Notes: a model not told the origin generated them from the letters alone. Counted from the first letter of the stretch, positions 2,322 to 22,664 are shown. The stretch: 32,000 nt of DNA from Sinorhizobium meliloti (GCF_017876815.1 NZ_JAGIOS010000003.1:1320001-1352000), one strand, 5' to 3'. Made by a program: numbers and translations.

Positions 2322-2555
2322 ATGGGTTCCATTGATGATTTTCGCAGCAAGCTGGCTACCGACAGCGCCTTTGCAGCGGCAGTGAAGGCCTGCTCCACCC
2401 CGGATGCGATCGTGAATGCTGCCAAGGACGCCGGTATCGACCTCAGCCACAATGATCTGGCCAAGGCGATCGCGGCGGGAAGCCCGAATCTGACGGATGA
2501 AGATCTGGAGTCGGTATCCTCCGGCACCATCATGGCCGCAGCGCTGGTCAAGTAA
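2322..2555 (+). CDS. RiPP precursor peptide, Nif11-like leader, copy 1 (77 aa)
   Basis: MGSIDDFRSKLATDSAFAAAVKACSTPDAIVNAAKDAGIDLSHNDLAKAIAAGSPNLTDEDLESVSSG/TIMAAALVK. It matches the Nif11-type leader pattern (M..eqLkaF..kv..D..l...lka..tpe.vv..Ak.aGf.l...dl......LsdEeLE.VaGG). GGAG lies 8 nt upstream of the ATG. An alternative ATG 24 nt upstream (MPTDGESL..) follows GAGGA. Confidence 0.85.
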   Translation: MGSIDDFRSKLATDSAFAAAVKACSTPDAIVNAAKDAGIDLSHNDLAKAIAAGSPNLTDEDLESVSSGTIMAAALVK

Positions 2556-2570
2556 TCAGTGTGACGGTTC

Positions 2571-2864: not shown

Positions 2865-3098
2865 ATGGGTTCCATTGATGATTTTCGCAGCAAGCTGGCT
2901 ACCGACAGCGCCTTTGCAGCGGCGGTGAAAGCCTGCTCCACCCCGGATGCGATCGTGAATGCTGCCAAGGACGCCGGTATCGACCTCAGCCACAACGATC
3001 TGGCCAAGGCGATCGCGGCAGGAAGCCCGAATCTGACGGATGAAGATCTGGAGTCGGTATCCTCCGGCACCATCATGGCCGCAGCGCTGGTCAAGTAA
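2865..3098 (+). CDS. RiPP precursor peptide, Nif11-like leader, copy 2 (77 aa, identical peptide)
   Basis: Same peptide as copy 1. It differs from copy 1 at four third-codon positions only (gca/gcg, aag/aaa, aat/aac, gcg/gca). Confidence 0.85.
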   Translation: MGSIDDFRSKLATDSAFAAAVKACSTPDAIVNAAKDAGIDLSHNDLAKAIAAGSPNLTDEDLESVSSGTIMAAALVK

Positions 3099-3113
3099 TC
3101 AGTGTGACGGTTC

Positions 3114-3406: not shown

Positions 3407-3640
3407 ATGGGTTCCATTGATGATTTTCGCAGCAAGCTGGCTACCGACAGCGCCTTTGCAGCGGCGGTGAAAGCCTGCTCCACCCCGGATGCGATCGTGA
3501 ATGCTGCCAAGGACGCCGGTATCGACCTCAGCCACAACGATCTGGCCAAGGCGATCGCGGCAGGAAGCCCGAATCTGACGGATGAAGATCTGGAGTCGGT
3601 ATCCTCCGGCACCATCATGGCCGCAGCGCTGGTCAAGTAA
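3407..3640 (+). CDS. RiPP precursor peptide, Nif11-like leader, copy 3 (77 aa, identical peptide)
   Basis: Coding sequence identical to copy 2, with the same GGAG Shine-Dalgarno. Confidence 0.85.
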   Translation: MGSIDDFRSKLATDSAFAAAVKACSTPDAIVNAAKDAGIDLSHNDLAKAIAAGSPNLTDEDLESVSSGTIMAAALVK

Positions 3641-3710: not shown

Positions 3711-4901
3711 GTGACCACTCCCGCCATCGGCACTAGAAATCGCAGGCAAGAATCAAGAATAATGACAGCATGTAACAGTTTGGGAACTTCGATTCGCAAT
3801 GTATCCGCAAGTCATACGCTTGCCGCGATCCAGCCACTTCTCGGACGTTACGACATCAGCGGATTTGCCGATCATTCGCCAAAGGGTGCAGAAACTCTGA
3901 AGTTTATAGAGGTCGTGCGCGGCAATCCGCGTTCGGGACATCTTAATCTCGGGAAAGGCTTTAGCTTCGAGACGGCACTTGCCTCGGGATACATGGAAGC
4001 CATCGAGATGAGTACGGTTGAAGGTCCGCCCGAGATCGCGTTGCATGCGCTTCCTCGATCCGCGCTTCTTTATACCGGGGGCGGAAAGCCGCCGGAGCCG
4101 GATGCGGCGCCCATGATCCGTGGCGTTGACCTGTTGTCGGCAGAGCCGGTTTACAGCCCTGTCTATGAACATTTCCTGTCGCCTGCCCCCTCGGCGCGGT
4201 CTGTTTCCGTCAACGGCTTGGCCAGCGGAAACACGGTCGAGGAAGCCAGTTTACATTGTCTCTATGAACTGATCGAACGCGACTTGACTGCCCAATCCCT
4301 CCGCGACCCGGTGCTGGTGCAGCAGCTTCTCCTCAGCGACATTCCAGCGCCCATTTCCAACGCCCTGACGGAACTGGAAGCGTTCGGACTACACGCCGAA
4401 TTCTATCTTCTGGGGCAGTTCCTCGGCGTCACTGTGCTTCAATGTGCGCTTGTAAAAACCGGATCCGGTGGCGAGGTCTATTATGGCTGGGGCGCTCATC
4501 ACTTCCGAGCCATTGCCATTTCTCGTGCCATGACAGAAGCCGTGCAGGCCTGGTGTACGCGCGAGGCATGCAGAGCGCAGACGCTTCCTCTTTCGCGCAT
4601 GCCTGGCGGGGTCATGGTCTCTGCCGAGGTTCTGAAGCTTTTGAGGGAACCTGTTACGAAGGGCGAACGTCAGTTGCGGCGGCGCTTCATCGCCTGCCCG
4701 AGCGTTGCCTATTCGCTCACCGATCAGGATGAGCAGGCACCGGCATCGCCAACGGCTGCCCTGAACCACCTTCTCTCGTCGGCGCGGGACGCCGGCATCC
4801 GTCATGTCTTTGCCTGGACGCTATCCCCGCCAGACCGTCCATTTGCCGTCGTCAAATGTGCCGTCCCCGGATTCGAAACTCCATTTGAGGTGGACGCGTG
4901 A
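3711..4901 (+). CDS. ycaO: YcaO-domain protein 1 (396 aa)
   Basis: YcaO signatures GKGFSFETALASGYMEAIEMSTVE and NGLASGNTVEEASLHCLYELIERD. GTG start is preceded by GAAGGGG (alternative ATG at 3762). Its stop overlaps the TfuA start. Confidence 0.85.
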   Translation: MTTPAIGTRNRRQESRIMTACNSLGTSIRNVSASHTLAAIQPLLGRYDISGFADHSPKGAETLKFIEVVRGNPRSGHLNLGKGFSFETALASGYMEAIEMSTVEGPPEIALHALPRSALLYTGGGKPPEPDAAPMIRGVDLLSAEPVYSPVYEHFLSPAPSARSVSVNGLASGNTVEEASLHCLYELIERDLTAQSLRDPVLVQQLLLSDIPAPISNALTELEAFGLHAEFYLLGQFLGVTVLQCALVKTGSGGEVYYGWGAHHFRAIAISRAMTEAVQAWCTREACRAQTLPLSRMPGGVMVSAEVLKLLREPVTKGERQLRRRFIACPSVAYSLTDQDEQAPASPTAALNHLLSSARDAGIRHVFAWTLSPPDRPFAVVKCAVPGFETPFEVDA

Positions 4902-6271
4902 TGGTTGTCGAGACCAACAATGAGATTGCCGTTTTTCTGGGCCCGTCCTGCTCGATTGAAGAAGCTAAAAGCATCCTGCCGGAGGCAGATTACTTTCCGC
5001 CCGCGGCTCGTGGCTCCATCTACGGTATTATCAATGATGGATACCGGATGATCGTCCTTCTCGACGGTCTGTTCTACGGACAATATTCTGTTTGGCATAA
5101 GGAACTCCTGTTCGCCCTGGATTGCGGCATTGAAGTAATCGGCGCAACGAGCATGGGTGCCCTGCGGGCGGCCGAACTGGACTGCGAGGGCGTGACCGGT
5201 GTCGGGCAGATCTACCAGTGGTTTCGTGACGGCGAAATCGATGGCGATGACGAAGTGGCTCTGCTCCACCAGAGTTCCGAGGGAGCTTACGCGCCTCTTT
5301 CCATCCCTCTCGCCAATTTGCGTTGGAATCTGCGCCTTGCCCGAAGAGAATGTATGATCGACGAGCAGCAGGAAGCGCGGATTCTGGACCATGCAAAGGC
5401 CCTGTGTTTCCAGGACCGAATGATGGAGGTCGTGCTTTCGCCGCTGGCAAAGGAACTGGATGTTTCTGGCTTGCAAAAATGGCTTGAAACGCATGGAGAG
5501 GATCTAAAAAAAAGGGATTGCTTAGAAGCGTTGCACTTTGCCGCCAGCCGGATCGCGACCCTTGGCCCCGCGCAGCCTCCCCGTCTTCGCGCCTATGAGA
5601 CGGTGCATACGCTGATCGGCATCGAGTATTTCAAGCACGAGCGGTTGAATGCCATCTGCGCAAAACGGCAAGGCAAGGCCATGCCGCTCTCGCAGTACAC
5701 CGAGCGAGTTGCCGTGGGAGATCCCTCCTATCGTAGCTATCTGCGCGCTCGCGCTTGCCAGCGCCTTATCAATGGCTGGGCTCGGGAACTTCACCTCGAA
5801 ATCACCCCGGCGCCCATTCTGCCCCAATGGTTACCCAATCGGTTTGACCTCGCTCACCGCAGGGCAACCGGCCTGACGCTAATCGACATTGCACGTGAGG
5901 GACGGGAAGCCGCCTTCACCGCAGGCGTCATCGGATCTCTCTCATCACCCGGCAGCCGCAGCCTCGTCTCCGATATTGACCGGCAACTGGCAGAGGCAGG
6001 TTTCTCGGCATGGGGCGCGGGAGCCGAAATCACACATTTGGATGGCCGCCTTGTTTATACGCTTCGTCGCCTGGGGCGCGAAAAGGGCATTTTGCCGGAC
6101 GAGAATGAAGATGCAGATACCGCCGAAGCGGCGCTCCACTACCTTGAATGGGTCTATCGCACCGGCTTGCAGCACTTCGGCTACACATTTGACGCGGCAA
6201 CCGAAATCCTCCTGGCACACCAATTTGCCGATCGACTTGACGACATTCTCGGATTGAGGGCTGCATCATGA
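4898..6271 (+). CDS. tfuA: TfuA-like protein with about 240-aa C-terminal extension (457 aa)
   Basis: The N-terminal 200 aa carry the TfuA pattern: IAVFLGPSCS..A..ILP.A.YFPPAARGSIY..., LLDGLFYGQYSVWHKELLFALDCGIEVIGATSMGALRAAEL, GVGQIYQWFRDGEIDGDDEVAL. GTG 4898 / ATG 4901 overlap the YcaO1 stop (4899-4901). ATGA overlap with YcaO2 at 6268-6271. Confidence 0.85.
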   Translation: MMVVETNNEIAVFLGPSCSIEEAKSILPEADYFPPAARGSIYGIINDGYRMIVLLDGLFYGQYSVWHKELLFALDCGIEVIGATSMGALRAAELDCEGVTGVGQIYQWFRDGEIDGDDEVALLHQSSEGAYAPLSIPLANLRWNLRLARRECMIDEQQEARILDHAKALCFQDRMMEVVLSPLAKELDVSGLQKWLETHGEDLKKRDCLEALHFAASRIATLGPAQPPRLRAYETVHTLIGIEYFKHERLNAICAKRQGKAMPLSQYTERVAVGDPSYRSYLRARACQRLINGWARELHLEITPAPILPQWLPNRFDLAHRRATGLTLIDIAREGREAAFTAGVIGSLSSPGSRSLVSDIDRQLAEAGFSAWGAGAEITHLDGRLVYTLRRLGREKGILPDENEDADTAEAALHYLEWVYRTGLQHFGYTFDAATEILLAHQFADRLDDILGLRAAS

Positions 6272-7485
6272 ATGCTGTTGAGGAATACTCACAAGGAACC
6301 CAGCGCACCTATAATCCGGAAGAGACATTGCGGAGAATTGCGCCAGCGATGCGCACCTGCGGCATCAGCCGCGTTCTCGACGTCACCCATCTCGATCGAA
6401 TCGGCATCCCCACCTACAATGCCGTGCGCCCCAATGGAATGATCTTGTCCGTGTCCAATGGGAAAGGGTGGACGAAGGCCGCCGCATCCGTATCCGCAAT
6501 CATGGAGTCGATCGAGGTCGAGCACGCCGAATATCCGGATACCTCGGCCTGGCATCTGGCTCAAAGCGCGAAGGTACTGCGAAACCGGGGATATTCGGTC
6601 GTCGATGCGCCAACGCTCATCAGCGAGTGCCTCTGGCCCTCCGATACCTATGGCGGTCTCTACTACTCAGATGATCTTCGCCTCGATTGGGTCGAGGGAC
6701 GCGAGATCATCGAGTCTCGGCCAGTCCTGCTGCCGGCCAGCACCATCTATGTACGCGCGCCTTACGTGCATTATTTCACCAGCAATGGATTGGCGAGCGG
6801 CAACACCTGGGAAGAAGCAACGCTTCACGGCATCTGCGAGTTGATCGAACGCGATTCCACGGCGCGTCTCCTCGGTCGTCCCGAGGGCATGACCACATCA
6901 CGGTTGCTTCGGATCGAGCCAAAATCGATGCCTGAACATCTCGGGCACTTCTCGGAGAAAGTGGCGCAGGCCGGAATAGAGCTTTTCATGTTCGCTCTTC
7001 CGAGTGCCATCGATATCCATACATTCTGGGCTGTGTTCCATTGCCCGGGCGAGCCCAGTTTCATGCTGGCCACCTCGGCGGGCTTCGGGTGCCATACATC
7101 GCCGCAGATCGCCGCGTCTCGCGCCCTGACCGAAGCTGCCCAGTCGCGCCTGACCTATATTCACGGGGCGCGGGAGGATCTGGGGATAGACCACGTCAAT
7201 CGTCAACTGACCTGCGCGGAGACAGAAGCGCGATTGGCCTTGCAGGCGCGGACATTTGCCAAGTTTCGGCAGATCCCGACCGTCACCTGGGATGAACTTC
7301 TGGCCGTGGCGCCACATCGTGCCCGCGGGCGTACGATCCCGGAAAGCCTCTCCATGGTGCTGAGAATGTTGAAGGAGGCCGGACACGGTCAGGTCTATGT
7401 CCACGATCTGACGAAGCGCGGTCTAGACCTGGCCGTGACGAAGGCCTTCGTGCCGGGGCTCAAGGTCAGCGCGAAGATGATTTGA
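6268..7485 (+). CDS. ycaO: YcaO-domain protein 2 (405 aa)
   Basis: Canonical YcaO N-terminus (GISRVLDVTHLDRIGIPTYNAVRPNG..SVSNGKGWTKAAASVSAIMESIEVEHAE) and NGLASGNTWEEATLHGICELIERD. No Pro-rich azoline-type C-terminal tail. Confidence 0.9.
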   Translation: MNAVEEYSQGTQRTYNPEETLRRIAPAMRTCGISRVLDVTHLDRIGIPTYNAVRPNGMILSVSNGKGWTKAAASVSAIMESIEVEHAEYPDTSAWHLAQSAKVLRNRGYSVVDAPTLISECLWPSDTYGGLYYSDDLRLDWVEGREIIESRPVLLPASTIYVRAPYVHYFTSNGLASGNTWEEATLHGICELIERDSTARLLGRPEGMTTSRLLRIEPKSMPEHLGHFSEKVAQAGIELFMFALPSAIDIHTFWAVFHCPGEPSFMLATSAGFGCHTSPQIAASRALTEAAQSRLTYIHGAREDLGIDHVNRQLTCAETEARLALQARTFAKFRQIPTVTWDELLAVAPHRARGRTIPESLSMVLRMLKEAGHGQVYVHDLTKRGLDLAVTKAFVPGLKVSAKMI

Positions 7486-7529: not shown

Positions 7530-8507
7530 ATGGAGACGACCCGCATGACCCTGGAGACAGCATCGCCCGTGCAACCGAATAGCCATCCCGGCACGCCCTT
7601 TGGTGAGATGTGGCGCGTAGCGGAACAGAACCCAGCTTATTCCCTTCTGGAAGTGCTCGATTCCATTGATCGAGACGTGTGGGACATGGAAATGCCGAGC
7701 GCCGATCAACGCGGCGTCTACGCCCGGGTGAACGGTCAGGCGGCTCTGCACCGGTTGCGGGAGGCGATGAACGGCATGGAGGCGGAGTATCCGCTCGATG
7801 CCCCGCCGCGACGCCGCCAATGGCTCGCCTCGGGTTGCTTCATGCGTGTCGAGGCGGTGCTTGATGCCTCACAGGTCCGTGAACTGGCGGGGCACTGCGA
7901 CCATCTGCTGCATACGCCCGGAATGCGCCCTGTCCGCCTGTTTGAAAACCCGCATATTCTCTCGGAAGAAGCCATAGTCGCCATAGCCCGAACTGCGCTT
8001 GCGGCTCTCCCACAGGCTTTGCCGTGCTCGGCGAGACCTGCTCTTCTGAAGAGACGAACGCTCTTGCGCCGGACTTTCCCACGGGCACAGCTTCCCGATG
8101 CGCACGGCAACGCCAATAATCAGTTTTGGCATCAGGACAGCAATCAGAAGTTCAACGATGCACCCATGATCACGCTTTGGATTCCGCTGGAGGATGGCGT
8201 TGGAAGAACCTGCCCCGGTATGGAAGTTATCGATGCGCCGGTTTCCTACTTCTCCATTTTGCATGGGGATAGTTCCCAAACCATCTGCCCAATTCTGTGC
8301 GACATGTTTCCCGGCACCCAAATTACGTCGCTGGAAGCAGCTGCTGGAGATTGCGTCATGTTCAACGGCCTTACATTCCACCAGACCGCGACAAATCCTG
8401 AGATGCGGCAGCATCGGGATGCGCTTTTGATCCGCATCATCGAGGCGGCAGATGCGGCCCATTTTGGTCCTGATGGGGCAGCTGATGGGATCGTTCCACT
8501 TGTCTAG
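7530..8507 (+). CDS. PhyH-family Fe(II)/2-oxoglutarate dioxygenase-like protein (325 aa)
   Basis: FWHQDS (HxD facial-triad motif typical of phytanoyl-CoA dioxygenase relatives) and distal LTFHQTA. An alternative ATG at 7545 has GGAG 9 nt upstream. Confidence 0.65.
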   Translation: METTRMTLETASPVQPNSHPGTPFGEMWRVAEQNPAYSLLEVLDSIDRDVWDMEMPSADQRGVYARVNGQAALHRLREAMNGMEAEYPLDAPPRRRQWLASGCFMRVEAVLDASQVRELAGHCDHLLHTPGMRPVRLFENPHILSEEAIVAIARTALAALPQALPCSARPALLKRRTLLRRTFPRAQLPDAHGNANNQFWHQDSNQKFNDAPMITLWIPLEDGVGRTCPGMEVIDAPVSYFSILHGDSSQTICPILCDMFPGTQITSLEAAAGDCVMFNGLTFHQTATNPEMRQHRDALLIRIIEAADAAHFGPDGAADGIVPLV

Positions 8508-9363
8508 CCTCGCCGTCCGCATCATAGGCGCCGGTGCAGTGGGAATGGCGTGCGGCTACCTGCTGCAACGGCGCGGGCATAAGCCACTGCATGTCAGTAT
8601 GCGTGGAGCGCCCTTGCGTGAACTGCCAGTTGCCATGCAAGGCACGGCACGCGGTCGATACCGCCCCGAAGCTGCGACACATGCTTCCCCGACGGATATA
8701 ACGCTCTTTGCTGTCGGGCCGCACGAAGTGGCCGGTGCATTGGCAACATGGGGTCAACCTGATGGGCGAAACCTTGTGTTCTGCGCTCATCCAGAACCGC
8801 AAGAAGGCGCCGTCATGGTCTTTCCGCAGATTTCGGCAGAGATTTGCCCAATGCGCGGACTTGGCATTGTGACGAGCGGCGCTGTGGAGATCTGCAACAA
8901 GTCGCAGCCTCATGCCCCTGGCCTTCTGCTGAAATTGGGCTTCAGGCTGGTACGCATGGTGACGCGGGCTCATTTTGCAGGTCGCGCCCTGCAAACGGCG
9001 GCATCTTATGTTGTGCTTCTCGCCCTCTCCCGTGGTGAGATGACCCGCGATCAGGTCTCACAGGTCTTGCTGATCGACATCATGCGGTTGCTGATGGAGG
9101 CCATGAGAGGGGCCGAAATTGCGGTCCAACTGCCGGATGGCTGTTCCCGCGCCTTCGCTGAACTGGCTTTACACATCTGCGCGCCCACTTCCGCCGAAAA
9201 TGATGTTCTCTCGCAAAACCTGGAAGCGCTGATGGCAACACCACAGCGCAAATTGCGCGGCCACCTTGCCCTCTACGAAGCGCCATGGCGGCGGCATGGT
9301 CCGGCCTCCGACGGGCTTGCGGCACGCCTGATCGATTTCGCGACATCTAAGCCCGTCCTCTAA
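8485..9363 (+). CDS. NAD(P)-binding Rossmann-fold oxidoreductase, possibly ketopantoate-reductase-like (about 292 aa)
   Basis: N-terminal VRIIGAGAVGMACGYLLQRRGH (GxGxxG) right after the start. The ORF opens at 8452 and overlaps the dioxygenase stop. ATGs at 8473/8485 or TTG near 8499 are possible starts. Family assignment beyond the dinucleotide fold is weak. Confidence 0.55.
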   Translation: MGSFHLSSLAVRIIGAGAVGMACGYLLQRRGHKPLHVSMRGAPLRELPVAMQGTARGRYRPEAATHASPTDITLFAVGPHEVAGALATWGQPDGRNLVFCAHPEPQEGAVMVFPQISAEICPMRGLGIVTSGAVEICNKSQPHAPGLLLKLGFRLVRMVTRAHFAGRALQTAASYVVLLALSRGEMTRDQVSQVLLIDIMRLLMEAMRGAEIAVQLPDGCSRAFAELALHICAPTSAENDVLSQNLEALMATPQRKLRGHLALYEAPWRRHGPASDGLAARLIDFATSKPVL

Positions 9364-9400
9364 TGAACTGTCCTCGCCCATGCGCAAGAAAGGAAATTCC

Positions 9401-9679
9401 ATGCAACAACTGACAGTGATCGTCCCACCCTCGATCCGGCCCTATGTCGGGGGTCAATCGCGCATCACAGTTGAGGCCCAAACCGTGCGCGAGGCGCTGG
9501 GCGCCATGTCCGCCAAATCCGCGCAATTGAAGGAGCATTTGTTCGACACGAAAGGCGAGATCAATCGCTTTGTTCGGATTTTTGTCAACGGACGGCCCGT
9601 GCCGCTCGGATCGCGCGGCGATGAAGCCGTCGAAAACGGCGCGGAGATAGCGGTCGTGTTGGCGCTGGCTGGAGGTTGA
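9401..9679 (+). CDS. ThiS/MoaD-family ubiquitin-like sulfur carrier protein (92 aa, C-terminal Gly-Gly)
   Basis: MQQLTVIVPPSIRPYVGG...VNGRPV....EAVENGAEIAVVLALAGG-stop. Size, beta-grasp-like pattern and terminal GG fit the family. AAGGAA lies 6 nt upstream of ATG 9401. Confidence 0.8.
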   Translation: MQQLTVIVPPSIRPYVGGQSRITVEAQTVREALGAMSAKSAQLKEHLFDTKGEINRFVRIFVNGRPVPLGSRGDEAVENGAEIAVVLALAGG

Positions 9680-9683
9680 GGGC

Positions 9684-10826
9684 ATGCTCAGGCAGGAACG
9701 TCTATCACGTCTACGGGAATCCTTGTCTCGGATCAGTGTCGAGGAGGCAAGACGGAAGCAAAAGGCTGGCGTCAAACTGATCGATATTCGTGACGCCGAA
9801 GAAACCGCCAAAGGCAGCCCTGTCGGCGCGGTACGCATCAGCCGATCCTTTCTGGAATTGCAGATTGAAAACGTGGCGCCGGATGCCGATACCGAGCTTA
9901 TGGTACTCTGCGCCAGCGATGCGCGCGCGCTGTTTGCCGCAGACGATCTCAACCGCCTCGGCTATTCTTCCGTTCATTGGGTCGATGGCGGATTTCAAGC
10001 CTGGGAGGCAGCCGGTCTTCCCGTTGAAAAACACCGACAGCTGAGCGCAGCGGAGAAGGAGCGATACGCGCGCCATTTGAGCATACCCGAAGTGGGGGCT
10101 GAGGGTCAGGCGCTGCTTCTGTCCAAGAAGGTGGCTCTGGTCGGTGCTGGAGGCCTTGGCTCTCCGCTGGCCTTTTATCTTGCGGCAGCAGGCATTGGAA
10201 CATTGGGGCTGATTGACAGCGACCGGCTCGAACGGTCGAATCTTCAGCGGCAAATCCTCCATACCGACGACCGGATCGGGGAGTTGAAGGTCAGTTCGGC
10301 CGCAAAATCTCTTCAGGCGTTCAATCCGGACGTAGCTCTCAATCTCCATGAGATACGGTTGAACGAGAACAATGCACTGGAAATACTGGCCGATTACGAT
10401 CTGGTGATCGACGGCAGCGACAATCTGGCGACCCGCTACGTCGTGAGCGACGCCAGCACGCTGCTTAATATTCCCATGATTTATGGCGCGATCTTCCGTT
10501 TCGAGGGACACGTTTCCGCATTTTGGCCCAATGGCCCGTCCGGTGGCCCGTGCTATCGCTGTCTCTTTCCTGAAAAGCTGCCCGCATCGCTCACTCCATC
10601 CTGCTCCGAGGTCGGTGTGCTTGGCGTGTTACCGGGCGTCATCGGGACGATCATGGCAACGGAAGCGATCAAGATCCTGCTCGGAATCGGCGATCCGCTG
10701 ATTGGGCGTTTGCTGACCTACAATGCCCTCGATTGCTCTTTCCACGACCTCGAGGTCCCCGCGAACCCCCATTGCGAGCAGTGCCAATCCAACCGGGATC
10801 TGCCACGCATGCGCGCCGGGTTGTGA
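9684..10826 (+). CDS. Rhodanese-ThiF/MoeB fusion (E1-like adenylyltransferase/sulfurtransferase, 380 aa)
   Basis: Residues about 1-115 form a rhodanese domain with an active-site loop Cys (MVLCASDARALFAADDLNRLGYSSVHWVDGGFQAWEAAG). The rest is canonical MoeB/ThiF: RYARHLSIPEVGAEGQ, VGAGGLGSPLAFYLAAAGIG, DSDRLERSNLQRQILH, DGSDNLATRY, CYRC...CEQC zinc motifs. GGAGG lies 9 nt upstream. Confidence 0.9.
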   Translation: MLRQERLSRLRESLSRISVEEARRKQKAGVKLIDIRDAEETAKGSPVGAVRISRSFLELQIENVAPDADTELMVLCASDARALFAADDLNRLGYSSVHWVDGGFQAWEAAGLPVEKHRQLSAAEKERYARHLSIPEVGAEGQALLLSKKVALVGAGGLGSPLAFYLAAAGIGTLGLIDSDRLERSNLQRQILHTDDRIGELKVSSAAKSLQAFNPDVALNLHEIRLNENNALEILADYDLVIDGSDNLATRYVVSDASTLLNIPMIYGAIFRFEGHVSAFWPNGPSGGPCYRCLFPEKLPASLTPSCSEVGVLGVLPGVIGTIMATEAIKILLGIGDPLIGRLLTYNALDCSFHDLEVPANPHCEQCQSNRDLPRMRAGL

Positions 10827-10846: not shown

Positions 10847-11467
10847 ATGCTGCAAGCCTTCCGGTTTGGTGAAAGCGACCGGGACCATGTGTCCCGATTG
10901 CTGCATTGGGCGGACTTTCCCAACAGTGCACGTATTGTGGACCTCGGCGCTGGCAGCGGCGGGGTCGCGGCCCATATGGCGGCTTTGCGTCCGGATTTAC
11001 GTTTCTGTCTGGTCGATCTGGATGAAACGAAACTGGCGGCCAGTTCATTCGAAAAACACATTGCAAATATAACGCAAGTCCCAGAACCCGATGGTGCATT
11101 CGACGCGGCGATTTGCTGTTACGCAATGGGTTATGCGCCTTCGGATGCGCTATGGTCGGAGATTTCACGCCTTCTGCGACCGGGTGGCACTGTTTTTATC
11201 GTGGATATGGTGCCCAAGGATGCCACGATCCCGAAGCTTAGCCTGTTCGGCTATGAGATACGGAGCCGTGGGATGGTCGAGGAAGCGGCGCAATCTGTTG
11301 GTTTGATACCGGATGTCTATATCGAGCCGTATGATTCCGGCGATTGGGGCCGGTCCGTCTTTTCGGATGCTTTCGATGTATTCTTCGGCGATCTGCGGCC
11401 CGCCATCTGGTGCTGGCGCGCGCCCGAAACCAAGACCGTCGCTCACCCCTCGACCACCCAAGCGTGA
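10847..11467 (+). CDS. Class I SAM-dependent methyltransferase (about 206 aa)
   Basis: Motif I IVDLGAGSGGVAAHMA, post-I LVDLDE, motif II FDAAICCYAMGY, motif III LLRPGGTVFIVD. An alternative GTG at 10823 forms a GTGA overlap with the E1 stop. Confidence 0.8.
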   Translation: MLQAFRFGESDRDHVSRLLHWADFPNSARIVDLGAGSGGVAAHMAALRPDLRFCLVDLDETKLAASSFEKHIANITQVPEPDGAFDAAICCYAMGYAPSDALWSEISRLLRPGGTVFIVDMVPKDATIPKLSLFGYEIRSRGMVEEAAQSVGLIPDVYIEPYDSGDWGRSVFSDAFDVFFGDLRPAIWCWRAPETKTVAHPSTTQA

Positions 11468-11532
11468 TCGATCGACGGCATCCTAAGGTTACTGCGGCAG
11501 GGGCATAGCAGAGCGCGCATTCTGTCTGAGCG

Positions 11533-12066: not shown

Positions 12067-12128
12067 AGATGTTTCGGTAGCATTCGGTAGCCGCGCTGGT
12101 ACATAACCGGGCCTCTTACTTGCAGGTT

Positions 12129-12317
12129 TCAGATTATGGGGGTGGATGTGCGTTTAAGGGTCACAGTGCCGGCCACGACTAGAACGACTTCGATGGCGAC
12201 AGTCGCAATTACGGTGGTGCCGTTCGATTGATTTTGGCCGGAGATCTCCCCTTCAACAAATGCGTCCGAGCGTGCTGTGCAATTGTTGGCGTCATCGATC
12301 GTGAAAATGGTAGCCAC
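12129..12317 (-). CDS. Candidate small ORF (62 aa) downstream of the LanM-like gene
   Basis: GTG start 2-3 nt after AGGAAG. Product MATIFTIDDANNCTARSDAFVEGEISGQNQSNGTTVIATVAIEVVLVVAGTVTLKRTSTPII. Moderate GC3 bias. An AT-rich stretch lies upstream. Not recognisable, and may be a gene fragment. Confidence 0.25.
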   Translation of the reverse strand: MATIFTIDDANNCTARSDAFVEGEISGQNQSNGTTVIATVAIEVVLVVAGTVTLKRTSTPII

Positions 12318-12468
12318 GCTTCCTGACGCTCGCCACCAGCGTTGCGAGGCCCCATAGTATTTGATTTAACATGTTCGACGAGGACAAAAGCAAAAACGAT
12401 CATATCAAAACAAATTTTCAAAACACAGCCTTTCGGCGTTTGACAAAAAAGCTTGTACTTCTGACCGT

Positions 12469-15390
12469 TCAATGGCCTATGGTCGGAAGAAGACCAGCAG
12501 AGATGATAAGGTCGCGAGCCGCGTTGGACCGCTCGTCCCGGATCTGTGCGAACCCTATACCAGCAACGCCAGTGAACAGACCGAGATGGCGTGGATCGCA
12601 GTACTTCTGGGTGTCTGAAGAGCATGGCAAATTGCCAGTTGCCTGTGCTGATGACGCGCAGGCCATCTCGACGCCGGCGGTGCCGCTGTGGATACCGGCT
12701 CCTTGGTTAGGCAGGGACGCCAATCCGATCACCCCGCGCCGGATTGCAGCATCCGCATTCGCTCGCCATTCTTGGTCATGACGCAGGCACAGGCATGTGA
12801 TGATGTGACCTGCAATGCCGCAACTCCATTCAGAACCGGCGCGAGGGCCGAAGCGCCAGAAGGCTTCCGAGCTGTGTTGAAGCAGGGATTGAACCGAAGC
12901 GCGAATGTTTGCGTTCCCTGATACATGCGCAAACTGACTGAGCGCAGCCAATACACCAAAAGCACCTTGCGCAAAGCCAGACGGTGCCGTTTCCGCCTCT
13001 CTGCTGGTCCAGTCGGCCAGACGGCAGGCAACCATCTCGGCCTGAGTGTCCGCTGTGTCGGAATTCACGAGTAGGAGCGGACCCAGCAAGCCCGCATATC
13101 CGGACCAGACATCCCAAGGCTTATCTTCGAGCAAGGCCCGATCGAGAACTGCAACCAACTGCTGCATGGCGTGCGGGATTCGATCGGCCATTATGCTAAG
13201 CCTCTGCAGTGCCGACAATGCCAGAAGCTGTCCGCCGCTGCCACGCAACCCGATGGGCAGGTCTCGCCACCACCGCAGGCGCTCAGCCGGTGTTCCGCTC
13301 TCCGCCAGCCTCAGAAGCGGCTCAGCCAAATTTTCTGCAATATGGCAGGCCTCTGGTCTTCCGGTCGCTGCAAGATAGACGGCAAGACCAAGTGTGCCGC
13401 TCACGAGCGACATTCCAAGCGGCTGGTAGCAGAACCGGATACCATCCGGCGCGAGATCGAATCCGATCCAGCCATCTGATCGACGCCTGATTTCCGATAA
13501 AAGCTGGTCTGTCGGATTGGTGATCGGTTGGAGGCTGTTCTCGCAACTCCGCCCGTGCTGCGCGAGCCGCAATGCCTTGGCCGATGCCAAAGCGTCTATT
13601 GTTTCGATCTCACGCTCGATCCTTTCGCAGGACAATGCCTCTATTCGCTCCCGGCTTGCCGCCAAGCCACTCGTCTCGAAATAGTCATCGATTCGTTGAT
13701 CGCCGGTCAGGTTCAGGGCCGTTTGCGAGACCGTGTGCGTGAATACGGGAATATCCAGTTGGCGCATTTGCAGCTTTTCAGAGGCGCATAGGCTTGAAAC
13801 GTCCTGACGATCTGCAAGCGGCGCAAAAAGGCGCTCCAGCGGATAAAGAACGTCTGCTTGGGACTGCTCGCTTCGCAATGCTTCCGCCGTCAACTGACGG
13901 CGTGCAAGCGCCGCATAGATCCGTGTCGCGCGAATGACAGCGCGCCCCTTGCAGCCGTTGAAGGCCTGCAACAGGCCATCTTCCCCCAGCCAAACGGGTT
14001 TGTTGGCGATGATGGACCTGCACTGCGCATGGAATCCGGCCATGAAGAGCTTACGATGACGGAAAAATGGATTCTTCCTGTCTGACGTTACGGGCAATGA
14101 TTGCGTGCGAACGAGCTCCCCGATCATGACGGTGCGGGCCATGTTATCCGTATTGATGGAGTGCCAGCCGGGAATTTGCCTTGGCCATTCCTGAGGCTCG
14201 ATGCCGAAAGCGCTCGTATCGACGGCATCGCGTGCGAGGCCCAGTAAGGTCCAGGCTGGAAATAGCTCGGTTCGTGCAACGGTGGTGTCGAACCAAGACC
14301 ATGCCGTCTGGGCCGCACCCAGGCTGTCCCCCGGCCGTGGACGGCGAATTGCTGGCTTCTCGAAGGGCGTCAAAAGCGTTTCGGCGTCTATAACATATAG
14401 ATGGCTGTGATGCGCCACGAGGTTTTCGTGGTGACCATCCGTGTAACCTAAAACATGCAGGAGAGCGGCCAGTCTGCCGGCACTGCGATAGAATGCCTGC
14501 AGTACATCTTCGTTGTCGCAGGGCGCGCCCTCAACAAATTCCATATAGCCATAGTCTTCTGCGCACCAGATTTTCAGCCCGGGAAGAGGTGAAAGACCGA
14601 TGCTAGCGCGCGGATCCGCCAGCAAATTCTGGAACGCCGCCTCGAGGGCGAGGTTACGGGGCTTGTAGACGAGTTTTGTCTGCCGCCCCTGCCAAGTGAA
14701 TTCCAGCAGCACGACGCTCCGTCCACCCTTATGGGTATCGCCGACAGCAAATTGCATGCCGGAAAGCGCCGCGTCTTCAGGAAGGCGGAAGTTTTGAGCG
14801 ATTGCTGTCCGATCCGCCTCGAGGCGGGCTAAAAGCTCGCGAAGATTTCTGATCCAGACTGCAATTGTGAAAGGAATCAAGCGTCGAAGGACCGGAAAGC
14901 GATCCAGCAGTTCCGCCAGATGTGTCTGCCGCAGTTCGTCTGTCAAGCGATCATAGATCTCGCATTTCGCGGCGCTCGGGTCTTTCTCCGGGGCTAATGC
15001 GGCGATGACGGACGCGCCAGCGCCACGCCGCTCTTCAAGTATTTGCTGAAGTGCATCTGCCCCCAACGCGCAAAGGCGCTCTGTCAGCGCTACAATCAGT
15101 TGCCCGATGACGGTTGGCGCCAACGCGGCTTGCGGCAGAAGCCCCATTGCGACTTCGGCCAGAGGAAACCACAGGTGAACAAAAGGCAGCTCTTTCGCAA
15201 GGCAAGGCGTTCGCGAAATGTCTTGCCTCGCCGCGAAGCATAAACCCGAGAGAAACGCATCTCCGGAACCGGCTTTCTCACGAGGCGCGCCTGTATTGCC
15301 CACCGGATCGGCAAGCTCGTCCACCAATGGCCAAAGGGCTACTATCGCCGTATTGTCTCGTGCCTCTTTTCGGATGTTTGCGTCGATCAT
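12469..15390 (-). CDS. lanM: LanM-like class II lanthipeptide synthetase (973 aa) with degenerate LanC-type cyclase motifs
   Basis: Dehydratase (DUF4135-type) signatures GDTHKGGRSVVLLEFTWQGRQTKLVYKPRNL and YGYMEFV...FYRSAGRLAALLHVLGYTDGHHENLVAHHSHLYVIDAETLL. The C-terminal repeats are LanC-like, but GFAQGAFG replaces G-x-A-H-G, EWSCGIAG replaces W-C-x-G, and GIHSGTAG (12673-12696) replaces C-H-G. Start moved to ATG 15390 (GGGAGG 9 nt upstream) rather than the track's 15441. Confidence 0.85.
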   Translation of the reverse strand: MIDANIRKEARDNTAIVALWPLVDELADPVGNTGAPREKAGSGDAFLSGLCFAARQDISRTPCLAKELPFVHLWFPLAEVAMGLLPQAALAPTVIGQLIVALTERLCALGADALQQILEERRGAGASVIAALAPEKDPSAAKCEIYDRLTDELRQTHLAELLDRFPVLRRLIPFTIAVWIRNLRELLARLEADRTAIAQNFRLPEDAALSGMQFAVGDTHKGGRSVVLLEFTWQGRQTKLVYKPRNLALEAAFQNLLADPRASIGLSPLPGLKIWCAEDYGYMEFVEGAPCDNEDVLQAFYRSAGRLAALLHVLGYTDGHHENLVAHHSHLYVIDAETLLTPFEKPAIRRPRPGDSLGAAQTAWSWFDTTVARTELFPAWTLLGLARDAVDTSAFGIEPQEWPRQIPGWHSINTDNMARTVMIGELVRTQSLPVTSDRKNPFFRHRKLFMAGFHAQCRSIIANKPVWLGEDGLLQAFNGCKGRAVIRATRIYAALARRQLTAEALRSEQSQADVLYPLERLFAPLADRQDVSSLCASEKLQMRQLDIPVFTHTVSQTALNLTGDQRIDDYFETSGLAASRERIEALSCERIEREIETIDALASAKALRLAQHGRSCENSLQPITNPTDQLLSEIRRRSDGWIGFDLAPDGIRFCYQPLGMSLVSGTLGLAVYLAATGRPEACHIAENLAEPLLRLAESGTPAERLRWWRDLPIGLRGSGGQLLALSALQRLSIMADRIPHAMQQLVAVLDRALLEDKPWDVWSGYAGLLGPLLLVNSDTADTQAEMVACRLADWTSREAETAPSGFAQGAFGVLAALSQFAHVSGNANIRASVQSLLQHSSEAFWRFGPRAGSEWSCGIAGHIITCLCLRHDQEWRANADAAIRRGVIGLASLPNQGAGIHSGTAGVEMACASSAQATGNLPCSSDTQKYCDPRHLGLFTGVAGIGFAQIRDERSNAARDLIISAGLLPTIGH

Positions 15391-15455
15391 GGCGATGCCT
15401 CCCGCACAAATCTCCCTTTCGACCCGGCAACATTTCCGCATTGACAGCTATGGAT

Positions 15456-15494: not shown

Positions 15495-16682
15495 ATGCAG
15501 CCTACAATGCCGTCCTATAACTTTCTGCCGGAGGATTTCAAGGTCTATGTCGGCGCGGATGGAGGTGTGTCTTACATGCCCGGCCCGCAGCGGCAGGAGC
15601 GCACTTTGCCGACGATCAATCGTTACGGGGGGCCTGACGGTGGCTATGTCGCGGTCTGTTCGCGTGTGGCGGATCATGCTGTCTATTCCGTTGGCGACGG
15701 GATCTATGTGGTTGGCCAGATCAGGCTGCAAGGCGCCTATGAGGGGCGCTTTTTCGTGCCGAAGGGCTATGGAAGAAAGGGCATCAGCGCTGCTCCGGAC
15801 ATGAAGGCGATATGCGATCAAGCCTTTCCCGGTAGCGCACCAAACTGGGCGAGCGGCGATGCCGGCGGTTGGTTTGGTCTGCTGATCGATAAGCGGGACG
15901 TTCGCGATAAGATCCTCACGTTGGATTTGCCCCAGCAATTGCCGGAAAAGGTTGATTTGCGACGATGGTGCTCGCAGGTCCAAAATCAGGGCACCTTGAA
16001 CGCCTGCACCGCCTACGCCGCCTCGGCCATCCTGGAATATTTCGAAAATCGCGCCGGCGGAAACGCAGTGTCGCTGTCGGAAATTTTCCTTTACAAGGTC
16101 ACGCGCAACCTGATGCACAAGACGGGCGACACGGGAGCCAATACGCGATCCGTCATGAAGGCTTTGGCAGCCTTAGGCACGGTGCCGGAAGAATATTGGC
16201 CGGATGACGCATCCCAATTCGATGCTGAACCGTCTGCCTTTGCCTATGCGCTGGCAGGTCGTTATCGCTCTCTCAAGTACAGCAGGATTGATGCGAAGGA
16301 CCGTTCAAAGGACGTGGTGTTGCGCCAGGCCAAGACATTGCTCAGTCGGAACCGTCCGGTCATGTTTGGCGTCATGGCGTATTTCGGCACCTGGCAGCAA
16401 TTCGTGACGTCCGATCGCCTGCCTTACCCGAGTGAGGATGACACGCTTTTTGGCGCCCATAACATTGCCGTCATGGGCTATGACGATGGCATCACAACGG
16501 AAAATGCCAAGAACCCCGGCATCAAGACGAGGGGCGCCTTCCTCATTAAAAACTCCTATGGCGAGGAGTGGGGTGACAAGGGCTACGGCTGGATTCCTTA
16601 CGATTACCTACTGAAACATCAGTCGATTGACTGGTGGACGATCACCAAGCAGGAATGGCTCGACATGAGCGTGTTCAGCTAA
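15495..16682 (+). CDS. Papain-family (C1) cysteine peptidase with about 130-aa N-terminal domain of unknown function (395 aa)
   Basis: Catalytic motifs VQNQGTLNACTAYAAS (Gln/Cys), GAHNIAVMGYDD (His), FLIKNSYGEEWGDKGYGWIPY (Asn). No signal peptide is apparent. GGAG lies 6 nt upstream of ATG 15495. The track's upstream extension (15114) overlaps the lanM-like gene. Confidence 0.85.
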   Translation: MQPTMPSYNFLPEDFKVYVGADGGVSYMPGPQRQERTLPTINRYGGPDGGYVAVCSRVADHAVYSVGDGIYVVGQIRLQGAYEGRFFVPKGYGRKGISAAPDMKAICDQAFPGSAPNWASGDAGGWFGLLIDKRDVRDKILTLDLPQQLPEKVDLRRWCSQVQNQGTLNACTAYAASAILEYFENRAGGNAVSLSEIFLYKVTRNLMHKTGDTGANTRSVMKALAALGTVPEEYWPDDASQFDAEPSAFAYALAGRYRSLKYSRIDAKDRSKDVVLRQAKTLLSRNRPVMFGVMAYFGTWQQFVTSDRLPYPSEDDTLFGAHNIAVMGYDDGITTENAKNPGIKTRGAFLIKNSYGEEWGDKGYGWIPYDYLLKHQSIDWWTITKQEWLDMSVFS

Positions 16683-20534: not shown

Positions 20535-20562
20535 CAAAAAAGGGCGGCCCGAGAGCCGCCCT
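20535..20562 (-). terminator. Rho-independent terminator of groESL
   Basis: On the reverse strand: agggcggc-tctcgg-gccgccct followed by TTTTTT, 38 nt after the groEL stop. Confidence 0.85.
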
Positions 20563-20599
20563 TCGGATCCGGATGGATCGTGCTAAGGCTGTCGCCTTA

Positions 20600-22279
<1,680 letters not shown>

Positions 22280-22312
22280 TCAAATTGCGGAAGTTTGAAG
22301 GGTTGCCGGCGA

Positions 22313-22609: not shown

Positions 22610-22664
22610 TGTCTAATCCCTCGATCATTGACACTGCGGATTTTGAACGACCCGGTGGTGGTTG

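What the first reader, a model, noticed from the sequence alone, without database searches (positions are those of the whole stretch)
12469..15390. LanM-like enzyme keeps the dehydratase signatures but has degenerate cyclase motifs, matching a Cys-free substrate
The N-terminal kinase-like/lyase region is well conserved (KLVYKPRNL; DGHHENLVA..YVIDAETL). In the C-terminal LanC-like repeats the canonical G-x-A-H-G, W-C-x-G and C-H-G motifs read GFAQGAFG, EWSCGIAG and GIHSGTAG (motif region about 12673-12978). The catalytic His and at least one Zn ligand therefore appear lost. The only candidate substrate has one Thr and no Cys, so no lanthionine can form. The enzyme may act purely as a Thr1 dehydratase, filling the role taken by separate kinase/lyase proteins in thioamitide clusters. 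The cyclase domain may be retained for leader binding or stability.
Basis: partly seen in the sequence, partly recalled or inferred. Interest (0 to 1): 0.75.

Follow-up and report, generated by a model that had tools for sequence, protein, structure and literature searches.

The report
Zinc-less LanM dehydratase, thioamide cluster
This gene encodes a lanthipeptide-synthetase-type enzyme that keeps a working-looking dehydratase half but has lost the zinc site of its ring-forming half; it sits in a conserved thioamide-peptide gene cluster whose 9-residue substrate has one threonine and no cysteine, so it most likely only dehydrates that threonine, a job already known for related enzymes.

Summary
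Window 12469-15390 (minus strand) encodes a 973-aa class II LanM-family protein. All nine CylM-type kinase and elimination residues are conserved. The LanC-like half reads GFAQG / WSCG / IHSG where relatives read GFSHG / SWCHG / CCG.

The gene belongs to a conserved cluster. Its parts are three identical Nif11-leader precursors (core TIMAAALVK), YcaO-TfuA-YcaO, ThiS-MoeB, a PhyH-like protein, a methyltransferase and a C1 cysteine protease. Twenty-one distinct homologous precursors all have cores T-x-[ML]-A-x-x-L-x-K, with Thr1 and Lys9 invariant and no Cys.

The LanMs of these clusters form one clade nested in ProcM-like (CCG) lanthipeptide synthetases. Within it the cyclase site runs from fully intact to fully lost, so ligand loss follows the switch to a Cys-free substrate. 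The LanC-like domain is still under purifying selection (dN/dS 0.37) and folds as a complete toroid.

Most likely the enzyme dehydrates Thr1 only, giving a 2-oxobutyryl N-terminus after leader cleavage. That is the PoyF/PoyH and thioamitide logic. Zinc-less LanM-like dehydratases are already described (CcaM/LanMbC), and 28 of 61 other LanM homologues retrieved here also lack both Cys ligands. I rate it a new variant of a known kind, of moderate interest.

The parts
12469..15390 (-). LanM-family gene, 973 aa plus stop codon: a dehydratase with a zinc-less LanC-like domain
   Evidence: TIGR03897 453 bits (cut-off 304), DUF4135 E 5e-88. 99% identical to P0001, annotated as LanM of Sinorhizobium medicae. 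AF2 model pLDDT 84.4; best PDB folds are LicM2 and CylM.
13735..14898 (-). DUF4135 kinase/lyase (dehydratase) domain, aa 165-552
   Evidence: Pfam PF13575 covers profile 1-377 of 378. All nine CylM catalytic residues are conserved. dN/dS 0.21 against the 86% orthologue.
12472..13485 (-). LanC-like alpha/alpha-toroid domain, aa 636-973, zinc ligands substituted
   Evidence: Partial PF05147 hit. About 15 predicted helices with high pLDDT. All seven G-x-x-G repeats are kept. dN/dS 0.37. Only 3 clusters at 50% identity reach E<=1e-30 in 1.84 billion representatives.
12673..12978 (-). Degenerate motif region: GFAQG (His to Gln), EWSCG (Cys to Ser, with a Cys one residue later), GIHSG (Cys-Cys/His to His-Ser)
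   Evidence: Alignments A1, A4 and the 70-sequence table. CylM pairwise alignment. CylM zinc ligands are C875, C911 and H912.
2322..2555 (+). Nif11-leader precursor, copy 1 (77 aa, core TIMAAALVK)
   Evidence: tblastn and translation. Tandem repeat family D1.
2865..3098 (+). Nif11-leader precursor, copy 2 (identical peptide)
3407..3640 (+). Nif11-leader precursor, copy 3 (identical peptide)
3711..4901 (+). YcaO protein 1 (not the TfuA-coupled one)
   Evidence: PF02624 E 4e-38. Present in every orthologous cluster.
4898..6271 (+). TfuA protein with a long C-terminal extension
   Evidence: PF07812 E 9e-40, aa 56-174 of 457
6268..7485 (+). YcaO protein 2, translationally coupled to TfuA (presumed thioamide-forming pair)
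   Evidence: PF02624 E 1e-65. The overlapping stop/start with TfuA is conserved in orthologues.
7530..8507 (+). PhyH-like (2-oxoglutarate/Fe oxygenase-like) protein; weak assignment
   Evidence: PF05721 E 4e-5, a short stretch only. Faint PhyH hits in orthologues. No PDB sequence match.
8452..9363 (+). Rossmann-type NAD(P)/FAD-binding protein, weakly ApbA (ketopantoate reductase)-like
   Evidence: Sub-threshold NAD_binding_8/ApbA hits here and in the L004 and L005 orthologues. PDB hits are not significant.
9380..9679 (+). ThiS/MoaD-type sulfur carrier
   Evidence: PF02597 E 5e-8
9684..10826 (+). MoeB/ThiF adenylyltransferase with a rhodanese domain (sulfur relay)
   Evidence: NF006444 558 bits; ThiF E 8e-72; Rhodanese E 1e-11
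10847..11467 (+). Class I SAM-dependent methyltransferase (206 aa from the second Met)
   Evidence: PF08241 and PF13649. The 206-aa length matches the annotated orthologue.
15495..16682 (+). C1 (papain-family) cysteine protease, divergent from the LanM gene: the presumed leader peptidase
   Evidence: PF00112 E 3e-10. Sequence strings resembling the papain Cys, His and Asn motifs (QGTLNAC, GAHNIA, IKNSYG) are present; this is my reading of the translation, not an alignment. A 395-397-aa orthologue lies next to the LanM gene in L002, L085 and L089.

Best explanation
The gene encodes a class II LanM-family enzyme. Its lineage was recruited from Nif11-associated, ProcM-like (CCG-type) lanthipeptide synthetases into a YcaO-TfuA thioamide-peptide pathway, where it works only as a dehydratase.

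The proposed course is as follows.
1. The intact kinase/lyase domain phosphorylates the single hydroxyl residue of the core, Thr1 of TIMAAALVK. It then eliminates phosphate to give dehydrobutyrine.
2. The TfuA-YcaO pair installs backbone thioamides in the I/V-M-A-A-A stretch, as in thioviridamide. ThiS-MoeB supplies the sulfur.
3. The neighbouring C1 cysteine protease removes the Nif11 leader.
4. The exposed N-terminal enamine then hydrolyses to a 2-oxobutyryl cap. The Rossmann-fold protein may reduce that cap.

No lanthionine is made, because no core in the family has a Cys. The zinc site of the LanC-like half is therefore unused and has decayed to different degrees in different lineages. It is completely lost in the Sinorhizobium/Rhizobium branch. 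The toroid itself is kept, probably because the dehydratase needs it for folding or substrate binding, as shown for CcaM.

Shown by my analysis: gene family, residue states, synteny, precursor conservation, phylogeny and selection. Inferred: the site of dehydration, the order of steps, the keto cap and the role of the retained domain.
For: **Dehydratase half intact.** All nine catalytic residues are intact in the query and in 70 homologues. Their roles come from CylM mutagenesis.

**Cyclase site lost.** The query reads GFAQG/WSCG/IHSG. P0002 reads GFANG/WSCG/IHSG, L085 reads GFAMG/WAYG/LFSG, and P0004 reads GFAHG/WATG/LYGG.

**Linkage to the thioamide cluster.** The LanM gene lies inside the cluster in at least five different gene orders. 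These are the window, L001 and L086 (MT-LanM on the same strand, 19 nt apart), L085 (LanM-precursor-YcaO), and L087, L089, L091 and L005.

**Substrate.** All 21 distinct precursor homologues have cores T[IVP][ML]A[AL][AL]L[IV]K. Thr1 and Lys9 are invariant, and there is no Cys and no other Ser or Thr. Leaders meanwhile fall to 44-51% identity. Only the three cluster copies of this leader occur on the 1.6-Mb replicon.

**Evolution.** NJ trees of the two domains are congruent. They place all cluster LanMs in one clade inside the CCG-type LanMs. The sister enzymes P0009 and P0012 have intact motifs and sit next to Nif11 precursors with Cys/Thr-rich cores and no YcaO. Within the clade, site states run from HCCC (L089) through -CCC (L091, L004, L005, P0006) and partial loss (P0107, L087) to none.

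**Retained domain.** dN/dS is 0.37 against 0.21 for the dehydratase. Identity to L085 is 41% against 46%. The toroid is confidently predicted, and the best folds are LicM2 and CylM.

**Precedents.**
- PoyF (a LanM dehydratase domain) dehydrates Thr1, and the C1 protease PoyH then exposes an alpha-keto cap.
- Thioamitide Ser1 gives pyruvyl, and an S1T mutant gives 2-oxobutyryl. TsaK is a C1A protease.
- CcaM needs its zinc-less cyclase domain for dehydration.
Against: - No experiment exists. Dehydration of Thr1 is inferred only because it is the sole invariant hydroxyl residue downstream of the double-Gly-like motif.
- The leader/core boundary is itself inferred. Leader position -3 is always Ser or Thr and could be a further or alternative site.
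- Orthologues with fully intact His and zinc ligands (L089) still act on Cys-free cores. Some thiol-dependent or structural role of the site therefore cannot be excluded for the family.
- The Sinorhizobium protein keeps C857 and H901 next to the old ligand positions.
- The C1 protease is missing near the Burkholderiales versions of the cluster (L004, L005, L087).
- The first YcaO has no assigned role. It could modify Thr1 instead, for example by cyclodehydration.
Confidence: 0.68

Rival explanations
1. The zinc-less LanC-like domain has a new active role. It might recognise the thioamidated core and so gate dehydration on prior YcaO/TfuA action, much as CcaM binds azoles. Or it might catalyse a non-thiol conjugate addition onto Dhb1, for example by the invariant C-terminal Lys9 amine, giving a macrocycle.
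For: The domain is under purifying selection and keeps all seven G-x-x-G repeats. CcaM's zinc-less domain is required for activity and binds the modified core. Thr1 and Lys9 are both invariant in 21 cores.
Against: The former active-site residues are not conserved even within the zinc-less subclade: Q/N/M/H, S/A, H/F/Y, S/G. Two active-site loops are shortened by roughly 14 and 15-20 residues relative to the zinc-containing orthologues. Known lysinoalanine formation uses a different protein, DurN (my knowledge). No covarying new motif was seen.
Confidence: 0.15
2. The enzyme is only a kinase, and the mature peptide carries phospho-Thr1, as with EmbM in phospeptin.
For: LanM-like kinases that stop at phosphorylation exist: EmbM and salivaricin 10 (title).
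Against: EmbM lacks the elimination residues. Here D218, H220, R483 and T489 are all present and invariant across the family. These correspond to CylM D252, H254, R506 and T512, whose mutation traps phosphopeptides.
Confidence: 0.05
3. It is still a true lanthipeptide synthetase. Its Cys-containing LanA is encoded elsewhere, and shifted residues (C857, H901) rebuild a zinc site.
For: C857 and H901 lie within one residue of the canonical ligand positions. Only one replicon was searched for further precursors.
Against: C857 and H901 are absent from L085 and P0004. The gene is always embedded in the thioamide cluster, next to Cys-free precursors, in several gene orders. No other precursor with this leader occurs on the 1.6-Mb megaplasmid. 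The catalytic His is gone.
Confidence: 0.04
4. The gene, or at least its C-terminal half, is a decaying remnant with no function.
For: The locus is rich in insertion sequences. The R. etli copy is truncated by IS66, and IS66 sits beside the gene in S. medicae ml29. The linker region has dN/dS 0.72.
Against: A full-length 973-aa ORF is conserved from 99% down to 41% identity. dN/dS is 0.33 overall and 0.37 for the LanC-like half. The structure is confidently predicted.
Confidence: 0.03

Closest known systems
PoyF / PoyH of polytheonamide biosynthesis
   Same: A LanM-type (DUF4135) dehydratase acts on a single Thr at position 1 of the core of an NHLP/Nif11-type precursor. A C1-family cysteine protease then removes the leader, and the N-terminal enamine becomes an alpha-keto acyl cap. 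The window has the same pair, and they are divergent neighbours.
   Different: PoyF lacks a cyclase domain altogether. This protein keeps a full-length, selected LanC-like toroid. The rest of the pathway also differs: thioamidation here, against radical-SAM epimerisation and methylation there. Direct homology to PoyF was not tested because no sequence was at hand.
CcaM / 'LanMbC' of the dehydrazoles (carnazolamide)
   Same: [quoted passage not shown] It is encoded next to YcaO genes and makes dehydro-amino acids but no lanthionine. The cyclase-like domain is needed for dehydration. The same paper foresaw clusters that add TfuA.
   Different: CcaM's C-terminal domain is described as class III-like. 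In the published alignment it shows no recognisable C-H-G context. The domain here is plainly a CCG-type class II LanC domain with point substitutions, and its tree matches that of the dehydratase domain. [quoted passage not shown] Here Thr1 is followed by Ile, Val or Pro, which cannot form azoles.
Thioamitide (thioviridamide / thiostreptamide) gene clusters
   Same: Both have YcaO plus TfuA, a PF05721-type oxygenase (here only a weak PhyH-like hit), a C1 cysteine protease and a SAM methyltransferase. Both cores begin S/T-V/I-M-A-A-A. In thioamitides Ser1 (or Thr1) is dehydrated and becomes a pyruvyl (or 2-oxobutyryl) cap.
   Different: There is no C-terminal Cys, no LanD-type decarboxylase, no His and no AviMeCys macrocycle. 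Dehydration would be done by a LanM-type enzyme in place of the phosphotransferase/HopA1 pair. The leader is Nif11-type, and the hosts are Proteobacteria (rhizobial megaplasmids and Mycetohabitans), not Actinobacteria. A second YcaO and a ThiS-MoeB pair are present.
ProcM-like (CCG-type) class II lanthipeptide synthetases with Nif11 leaders
   Same: These are the nearest relatives with intact motifs. P0008-P0012 are 31-36% identical, read GFSHG/SWCHG/CCG, and sit beside Nif11 precursors.
   Different: Those enzymes have Cys/Ser/Thr-rich cores and no YcaO/TfuA. This one has no zinc ligands, two shortened active-site loops and a Cys-free substrate.
EmbM (phospeptin)
   Same: A LanM-like enzyme acting on a Cys-free precursor without cyclisation.
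   Different: EmbM lacks both the cyclase domain and the elimination residues, and it stops at phospho-Thr. This protein keeps the elimination residues.

Membership tests
Class II lanthipeptide synthetase LanM (TIGR03897; PF13575 + PF05147) | N-terminal DUF4135 kinase/lyase domain with the catalytic Lys, D-x-H, Asn and Asp, plus the elimination residues Asp, His, Arg and Thr | tested here: met
   D218, H220, K243, D318, H320, N323, D335, R483 and T489 are aligned to the CylM residues. PF13575 E 5e-88; TIGR03897 453 bits, above the 304 cut-off.
Class II lanthipeptide synthetase LanM (TIGR03897; PF13575 + PF05147) | C-terminal LanC-like alpha/alpha-toroid domain | tested here: met
   PF05147 33 bits (cut-off 23), but only profile positions 2-233 of 350. 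The AF2 model shows a complete helical toroid. Foldseek returns LicM2, CylM and LanCL1.
Class II lanthipeptide synthetase LanM (TIGR03897; PF13575 + PF05147) | Zinc site Cys/Cys/His(Cys) plus the conserved His of G-x-x-H-G | tested here: not met
   Q808, S856, H901 and S902 occupy the four positions.
Class II lanthipeptide synthetase LanM (TIGR03897; PF13575 + PF05147) | A Cys-containing LanA substrate, so that (methyl)lanthionine can form | tested here: not met
   The three linked precursors and all 21 family homologues lack Cys in the core. There is no further precursor with this leader on the replicon. The rest of the genome was not searched.
LanMbC (CcaM-type azole-dependent dehydratases) | DUF4135 fused to a cyclase-like domain without zinc ligands, encoded with a YcaO | tested here: met
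   definition taken
LanMbC (CcaM-type azole-dependent dehydratases) | Cyclase-like domain of class III type; common descent with CcaM | tested here: inconclusive
   No CcaM sequence was available. Both domain trees place this protein inside the CCG-type class II LanMs. The LanMbC sequences in the published alignment lack the G-x-C-H-G-x-x-G context that is still visible here. This points to independent origin but is not a direct comparison.
LanMbC (CcaM-type azole-dependent dehydratases) | [quoted passage not shown] | tested here: not met
   At the sequence level only. The residue after Thr1 is Ile, Val or Pro in all 21 cores, so no azole can follow it. Leader dependence cannot be tested here.
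PoyF-type stand-alone LanM dehydratase | Dehydratase domain only, with no cyclase domain | tested here: not met
   A 338-aa LanC-like domain is present and conserved.
PoyF-type stand-alone LanM dehydratase | Single Thr1 dehydration, then C1 protease cleavage giving an alpha-keto N-terminus | not testable with these tools
   Only the gene pairing (LanM plus C1 protease) and the single invariant Thr1 are seen.
Thioamitide RiPP cluster | YcaO plus TfuA with an Ala-rich core that starts with Ser or Thr | tested here: met
Thioamitide RiPP cluster | C-terminal Cys with a LanD-type flavoprotein decarboxylase (AviCys macrocycle) and a phosphotransferase/HopA1 dehydratase pair | tested here: not met
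   There is no Cys in the core. No flavoprotein, HopA1 or APH-type hit appears among the cluster ORFs scanned against Pfam.

The most novel reading that the evidence does not exclude
The retained zinc-less LanC-like domain is not vestigial. It could be a reader of the thioamidated core that orders the pathway. Or it could be a catalyst for a thiol-free conjugate addition, such as Lys9 N-epsilon onto Dhb1, closing a 9-residue ring. The mixture of intact, half-lost and fully lost zinc sites within one orthologous cluster family would then record a change of function. It would not record simple decay.
Probability: 0.12. Interest if true: 0.7.

Novelty: new variant of a known kind. Interest (0 to 1): 0.4.

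Why it matters
It points to an uncharacterised family of short thioamide peptides with the thioviridamide-like head T-x-M-A-A-A. The family is carried on rhizobial symbiosis megaplasmids and in the fungal endosymbiont Mycetohabitans. No paper in the searchable library contains its core sequence.

The family uses a lanthipeptide synthetase as a single-site dehydratase. It therefore links three known strategies: PoyF/PoyH keto-cap formation, thioamitide thioamidation, and zinc-less LanM dehydratases.

Orthologous clusters carry the same Cys-free substrate, yet their cyclase sites range from intact to erased. They form a natural series for asking what a LanC-like domain contributes to a LanM dehydratase once cyclisation is no longer needed.

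For annotation, it is a reminder that 'type 2 lanthipeptide synthetase LanM' calls often do not imply a lanthipeptide. Here 28 of 61 unrelated homologues also lack both Cys ligands.

Tried and rejected
- **A Cys-bearing alternative substrate (rejected).** The 62-aa ORF just downstream of the LanM stop (12129-12317, minus strand) has one Cys and many Thr. It occurs only in near-identical Sinorhizobium loci. It is absent from L001, L085 and L086, where the neighbourhood differs. I rejected it.
- **The precursor next to P0004.** The contig DNA was not retrievable and the metagenome scan did not recover it, so its core remains unknown.
- **Genome-collection scan.** It gave only three loci. The family was mapped instead through precursor homologues and their contigs.
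- **Direct comparison with CcaM or PoyF.** No sequences were available. Only the published alignment fragment could be read.
- **PDB sequence searches.** Searches for the PhyH-like and Rossmann-fold neighbours gave nothing significant. The 'reductase of the keto cap' idea therefore rests only on recurrent sub-threshold ApbA hits.
- **Promoter and terminator scan around the gene.** It gave no more than chance.
- **Literature searches.** Searches for the core sequences, and for Mycetohabitans/rhizoxinica with TfuA or YcaO, found no description of this cluster. A thioamitide refactoring paper concerned a different cluster.
- **A class III domain swap (considered and rejected).** Weak NCBIfam hits to LanKC and LanL suggested it. 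The two domain trees are congruent.


Full report
**What is there**

The window is 100% identical over 15 kb to the 1.6-Mb megaplasmid of Sinorhizobium meliloti RU11/001. It is about 99% identical to S. medicae plasmids.

The finding's coordinates are correct. The ORF runs 12469..15441 on the minus strand. Homologues are 973 aa and begin MIDAN, which fixes the start at 15390. The protein scores 453 bits on TIGR03897 LanM (cut-off 304) and E 5e-88 on DUF4135. The LANC_like profile is matched only over its first two thirds. Amino acids 805-906 map exactly to nt 12978-12673.

**The two halves of the enzyme**

CylM mutagenesis defined two sets of residues:
- Lys274, Asp347, His349, Asn352 and Asp364 for phosphorylation.
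- Asp252, His254, Arg506 and Thr512 for phosphate elimination.

Pairwise alignment with CylM and a 70-sequence alignment place query K243, D318, H320, N323, D335, D218, H220, R483 and T489 at these positions. All are conserved. The enzyme should therefore both phosphorylate and eliminate.

In CylM, zinc is held by Cys875, Cys911 and His912. The query has Ser856 at the first position, with a Cys one residue later. It has His901-Ser902 at the pair, and Gln808 at the conserved His of G-x-x-H-G.

Three further members of the same subclade read GFANG/WSCG/IHSG, GFAMG/WAYG/LFSG and GFAHG/WATG/LYGG. So neither the shifted Cys nor the His is conserved. Two loops flanking the old site are shorter, by about 14 and 15-20 residues, than in relatives that keep zinc ligands.

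The domain is nevertheless not collapsing.
- All seven G-x-x-G repeats remain.
- AlphaFold2 predicts a complete helical toroid (mean pLDDT 84.4, pTM 0.86).
- The best structural matches are LicM2 and CylM, then the class III/IV enzymes and LanCL1.
- Against the 86%-identical orthologue, dN/dS is 0.37 for this domain and 0.21 for the dehydratase.

**The surrounding cluster and the substrate**

Upstream lie three tandem, about 543-bp repeats. Each encodes the same 77-aa Nif11-leader peptide, which ends ...DEDLESVSSG-TIMAAALVK. The genes that follow are:
- YcaO, TfuA and a second YcaO
- a weakly PhyH-like protein
- a Rossmann-fold protein
- ThiS
- MoeB with a rhodanese domain
- a SAM methyltransferase

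The LanM gene comes next, inverted. A C1 cysteine protease gene is divergent from it. That protease has sequence strings resembling the papain Cys, His and Asn motifs; this is my reading of the translation.

The association is not accidental. The LanM gene lies within the same gene set in several different orders.
- In a metagenome contig and in R. leguminosarum it sits directly after the methyltransferase, on the same strand.
- In L085 it sits directly before the precursor.
- It takes other arrangements in L087, L089, L091 and Mycetohabitans.

A profile search found 21 distinct precursor homologues. Their cores are TIMAAALVK, TVMAAALVK/IK, TPMAAALIK, TPLAAALIK, TVLAALLVK and TVMALALIK. Thr1 and Lys9 are invariant. 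There is no Cys and no other Ser or Thr. The leaders meanwhile diverge to about 45-50% identity, and the one leader Cys is not conserved.

On the RU11/001 megaplasmid only the three cluster copies of this leader exist. A Cys-bearing 62-aa ORF just downstream of the LanM gene is not conserved outside near-identical strains, so I dismissed it.

**Evolution of the cyclase site**

NJ trees built separately from the dehydratase and the LanC-like domain agree. All thioamide-cluster LanMs form one clade nested in CCG-type (ProcM-like) LanMs. This argues against a domain swap with a class III enzyme.

The sister enzymes P0009 and P0012 have all motifs intact. They sit beside Nif11 precursors with Cys/Thr-rich cores (for example SNCTLTCCWVATSCLHTCWWTVV) and have no YcaO, so they are ordinary lanthipeptide systems.

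Inside the thioamide clade the substrate is always Cys-free, yet the site varies:

| Member(s) | State of the cyclase site |
|---|---|
| L089 | fully intact |
| L091, L004, L005, P0006 | His lost, the three Cys kept |
| P0107 | motif 2 lost, CCG kept |
| L087 group | almost all lost |
| Sinorhizobium/Rhizobium/L085/P0004 subclade | all lost |

This pattern is what relaxed selection on an unused site would give. It shows that the switch to a Cys-free substrate came first.

The fully zinc-less subclade is small. Among 1.84 billion representatives, only three clusters at 50% identity reach E<=1e-30.

**Mechanism proposed**

The core resembles the head of thioviridamide, SVMAAAATVAFHC. The cluster also holds the thioamitide enzyme set: YcaO, TfuA, a weakly PhyH-like protein (PF05721), a C1A protease and a methyltransferase. 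It lacks the phosphotransferase/HopA1 pair and the decarboxylase.

In thioamitides, Ser1 is dehydrated and becomes a pyruvyl cap after leader removal. An S1T mutant gives 2-oxobutyryl. In polytheonamide biosynthesis a LanM-type dehydratase domain, PoyF, dehydrates Thr1, and the C1 protease PoyH then exposes the alpha-keto cap.

I therefore propose that this LanM dehydrates Thr1 only. TfuA-YcaO, with ThiS-MoeB, thioamidates the I/V-M-A-A-A stretch. The C1 protease releases a 2-oxobutyryl-capped, thioamidated nonapeptide. The predicted mass is 899.515 Da plus 15.977 Da per thioamide.

The Rossmann-fold protein gives recurrent but sub-threshold ketopantoate-reductase-type hits in three orthologues. 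It might reduce the keto cap, but this is a weak lead. The retained LanC-like domain probably supports folding or substrate binding, as in CcaM, whose zinc-less domain is required for dehydration.

None of these chemical steps is shown here.

**Comparison with what is known, and novelty**

Zinc-less LanM-like dehydratases encoded with YcaO genes were described in 2023 as LanMbC (CcaM, dehydrazoles). That paper anticipated versions combined with TfuA. This enzyme meets the operational definition but appears to be an independent lineage, for three reasons:
- Its domain is a recognisable CCG-type LanC domain.
- Some of its orthologues keep the zinc ligands.
- Its target Thr cannot precede an azole.

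Loss of the ligands is common in general. Of 61 other full-length LanM homologues retrieved, 28 lack both Cys ligands.

TfuA clusters with Nif11 precursors and MoeB in Rhizobium were noted in a genome-mining survey, without mention of the LanM. No paper in the searchable library contains the core sequences.

I rate the finding a new variant of a known kind. Two corrections apply: the ligand loss is a secondary decay and not a matched feature, and good precedents already exist.

**Limits**

- The leader/core boundary is inferred.
- Leader position -3 is always Ser or Thr and could matter.
- The first YcaO has no assigned role.
- The C1 protease is absent near the Burkholderiales clusters.
- Only one replicon was searched for other substrates.
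- C857 and H901 might still bind metal in this particular protein.

Noticed in passing
window 2195-3640: The precursor gene lies in three tandem repeats of about 543 bp that encode identical peptides. Copy number is 1 in Rhizobium and Mycetohabitans plasmids and 2-8 in Sinorhizobium plasmids.
   Followed up: partly
window 4898-6271: The TfuA ORF is 457 aa, but the TfuA domain covers only aa 56-174. A C-terminal extension of about 280 aa with no Pfam hit is kept, at similar length (452-482 aa in total), in all orthologous clusters. It is annotated as two separate CDS in S. medicae ml29.
   Followed up: no
window 3711-4901: A second YcaO, not coupled to TfuA, is conserved in every cluster of the family. 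It has no obvious substrate residue in a core without Cys or Ser. Thr1 or an amidine-type reaction are the only evident options.
   Followed up: no
window 11468-12468: The 1-kb gap between the methyltransferase and the LanM stop has no conserved ORF. An IS66 element sits at this junction in S. medicae ml29. The R. etli plasmid copy of the LanM gene is truncated to 582 aa beside an IS66 TnpB, near nodA.
   Followed up: partly
window 3599-3607 (leader positions -5 to -3 of precursor copy 3) and homologues P0074-P0097: Leader position -3 is Ser or Thr in all 21 family precursors. In the generic Nif11 hits it is Ala, Asn or Thr. It could be a recognition element or a second modification site.
   Followed up: no
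window 8452-9363; L005 4883-5881; L004 4970-5950: The conserved Rossmann-fold protein gives repeated sub-threshold hits to the ketopantoate reductase (ApbA) N-terminal domain. This may hint at reduction of an alpha-keto group. No significant PDB sequence match was found.
   Followed up: partly
L094 7723-8001; L095 5286-5609: The sister LanMs with intact motifs (P0009, P0012) are translationally coupled to Nif11 precursors with Cys/Thr-rich cores. These appear to be uncharacterised proteobacterial class II lanthipeptides.
   Followed up: partly
window 29000-31000 and 26189-28790: A 66% G+C island carries two cytochrome P450 ORFs. It is preceded by an IS4/5 transposase and a phage-type metallopeptidase gene. 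It lies outside the cluster and is probably of separate origin.
   Followed up: no
window 20477-22921; L002 5167-7551: An ORF of about 800 aa with no Pfam hit lies a few kb from the C1 protease gene, both here and on the R. etli plasmid. Its function and any relation to the cluster are unknown, and homology between the two ORFs was not tested.
   Followed up: no
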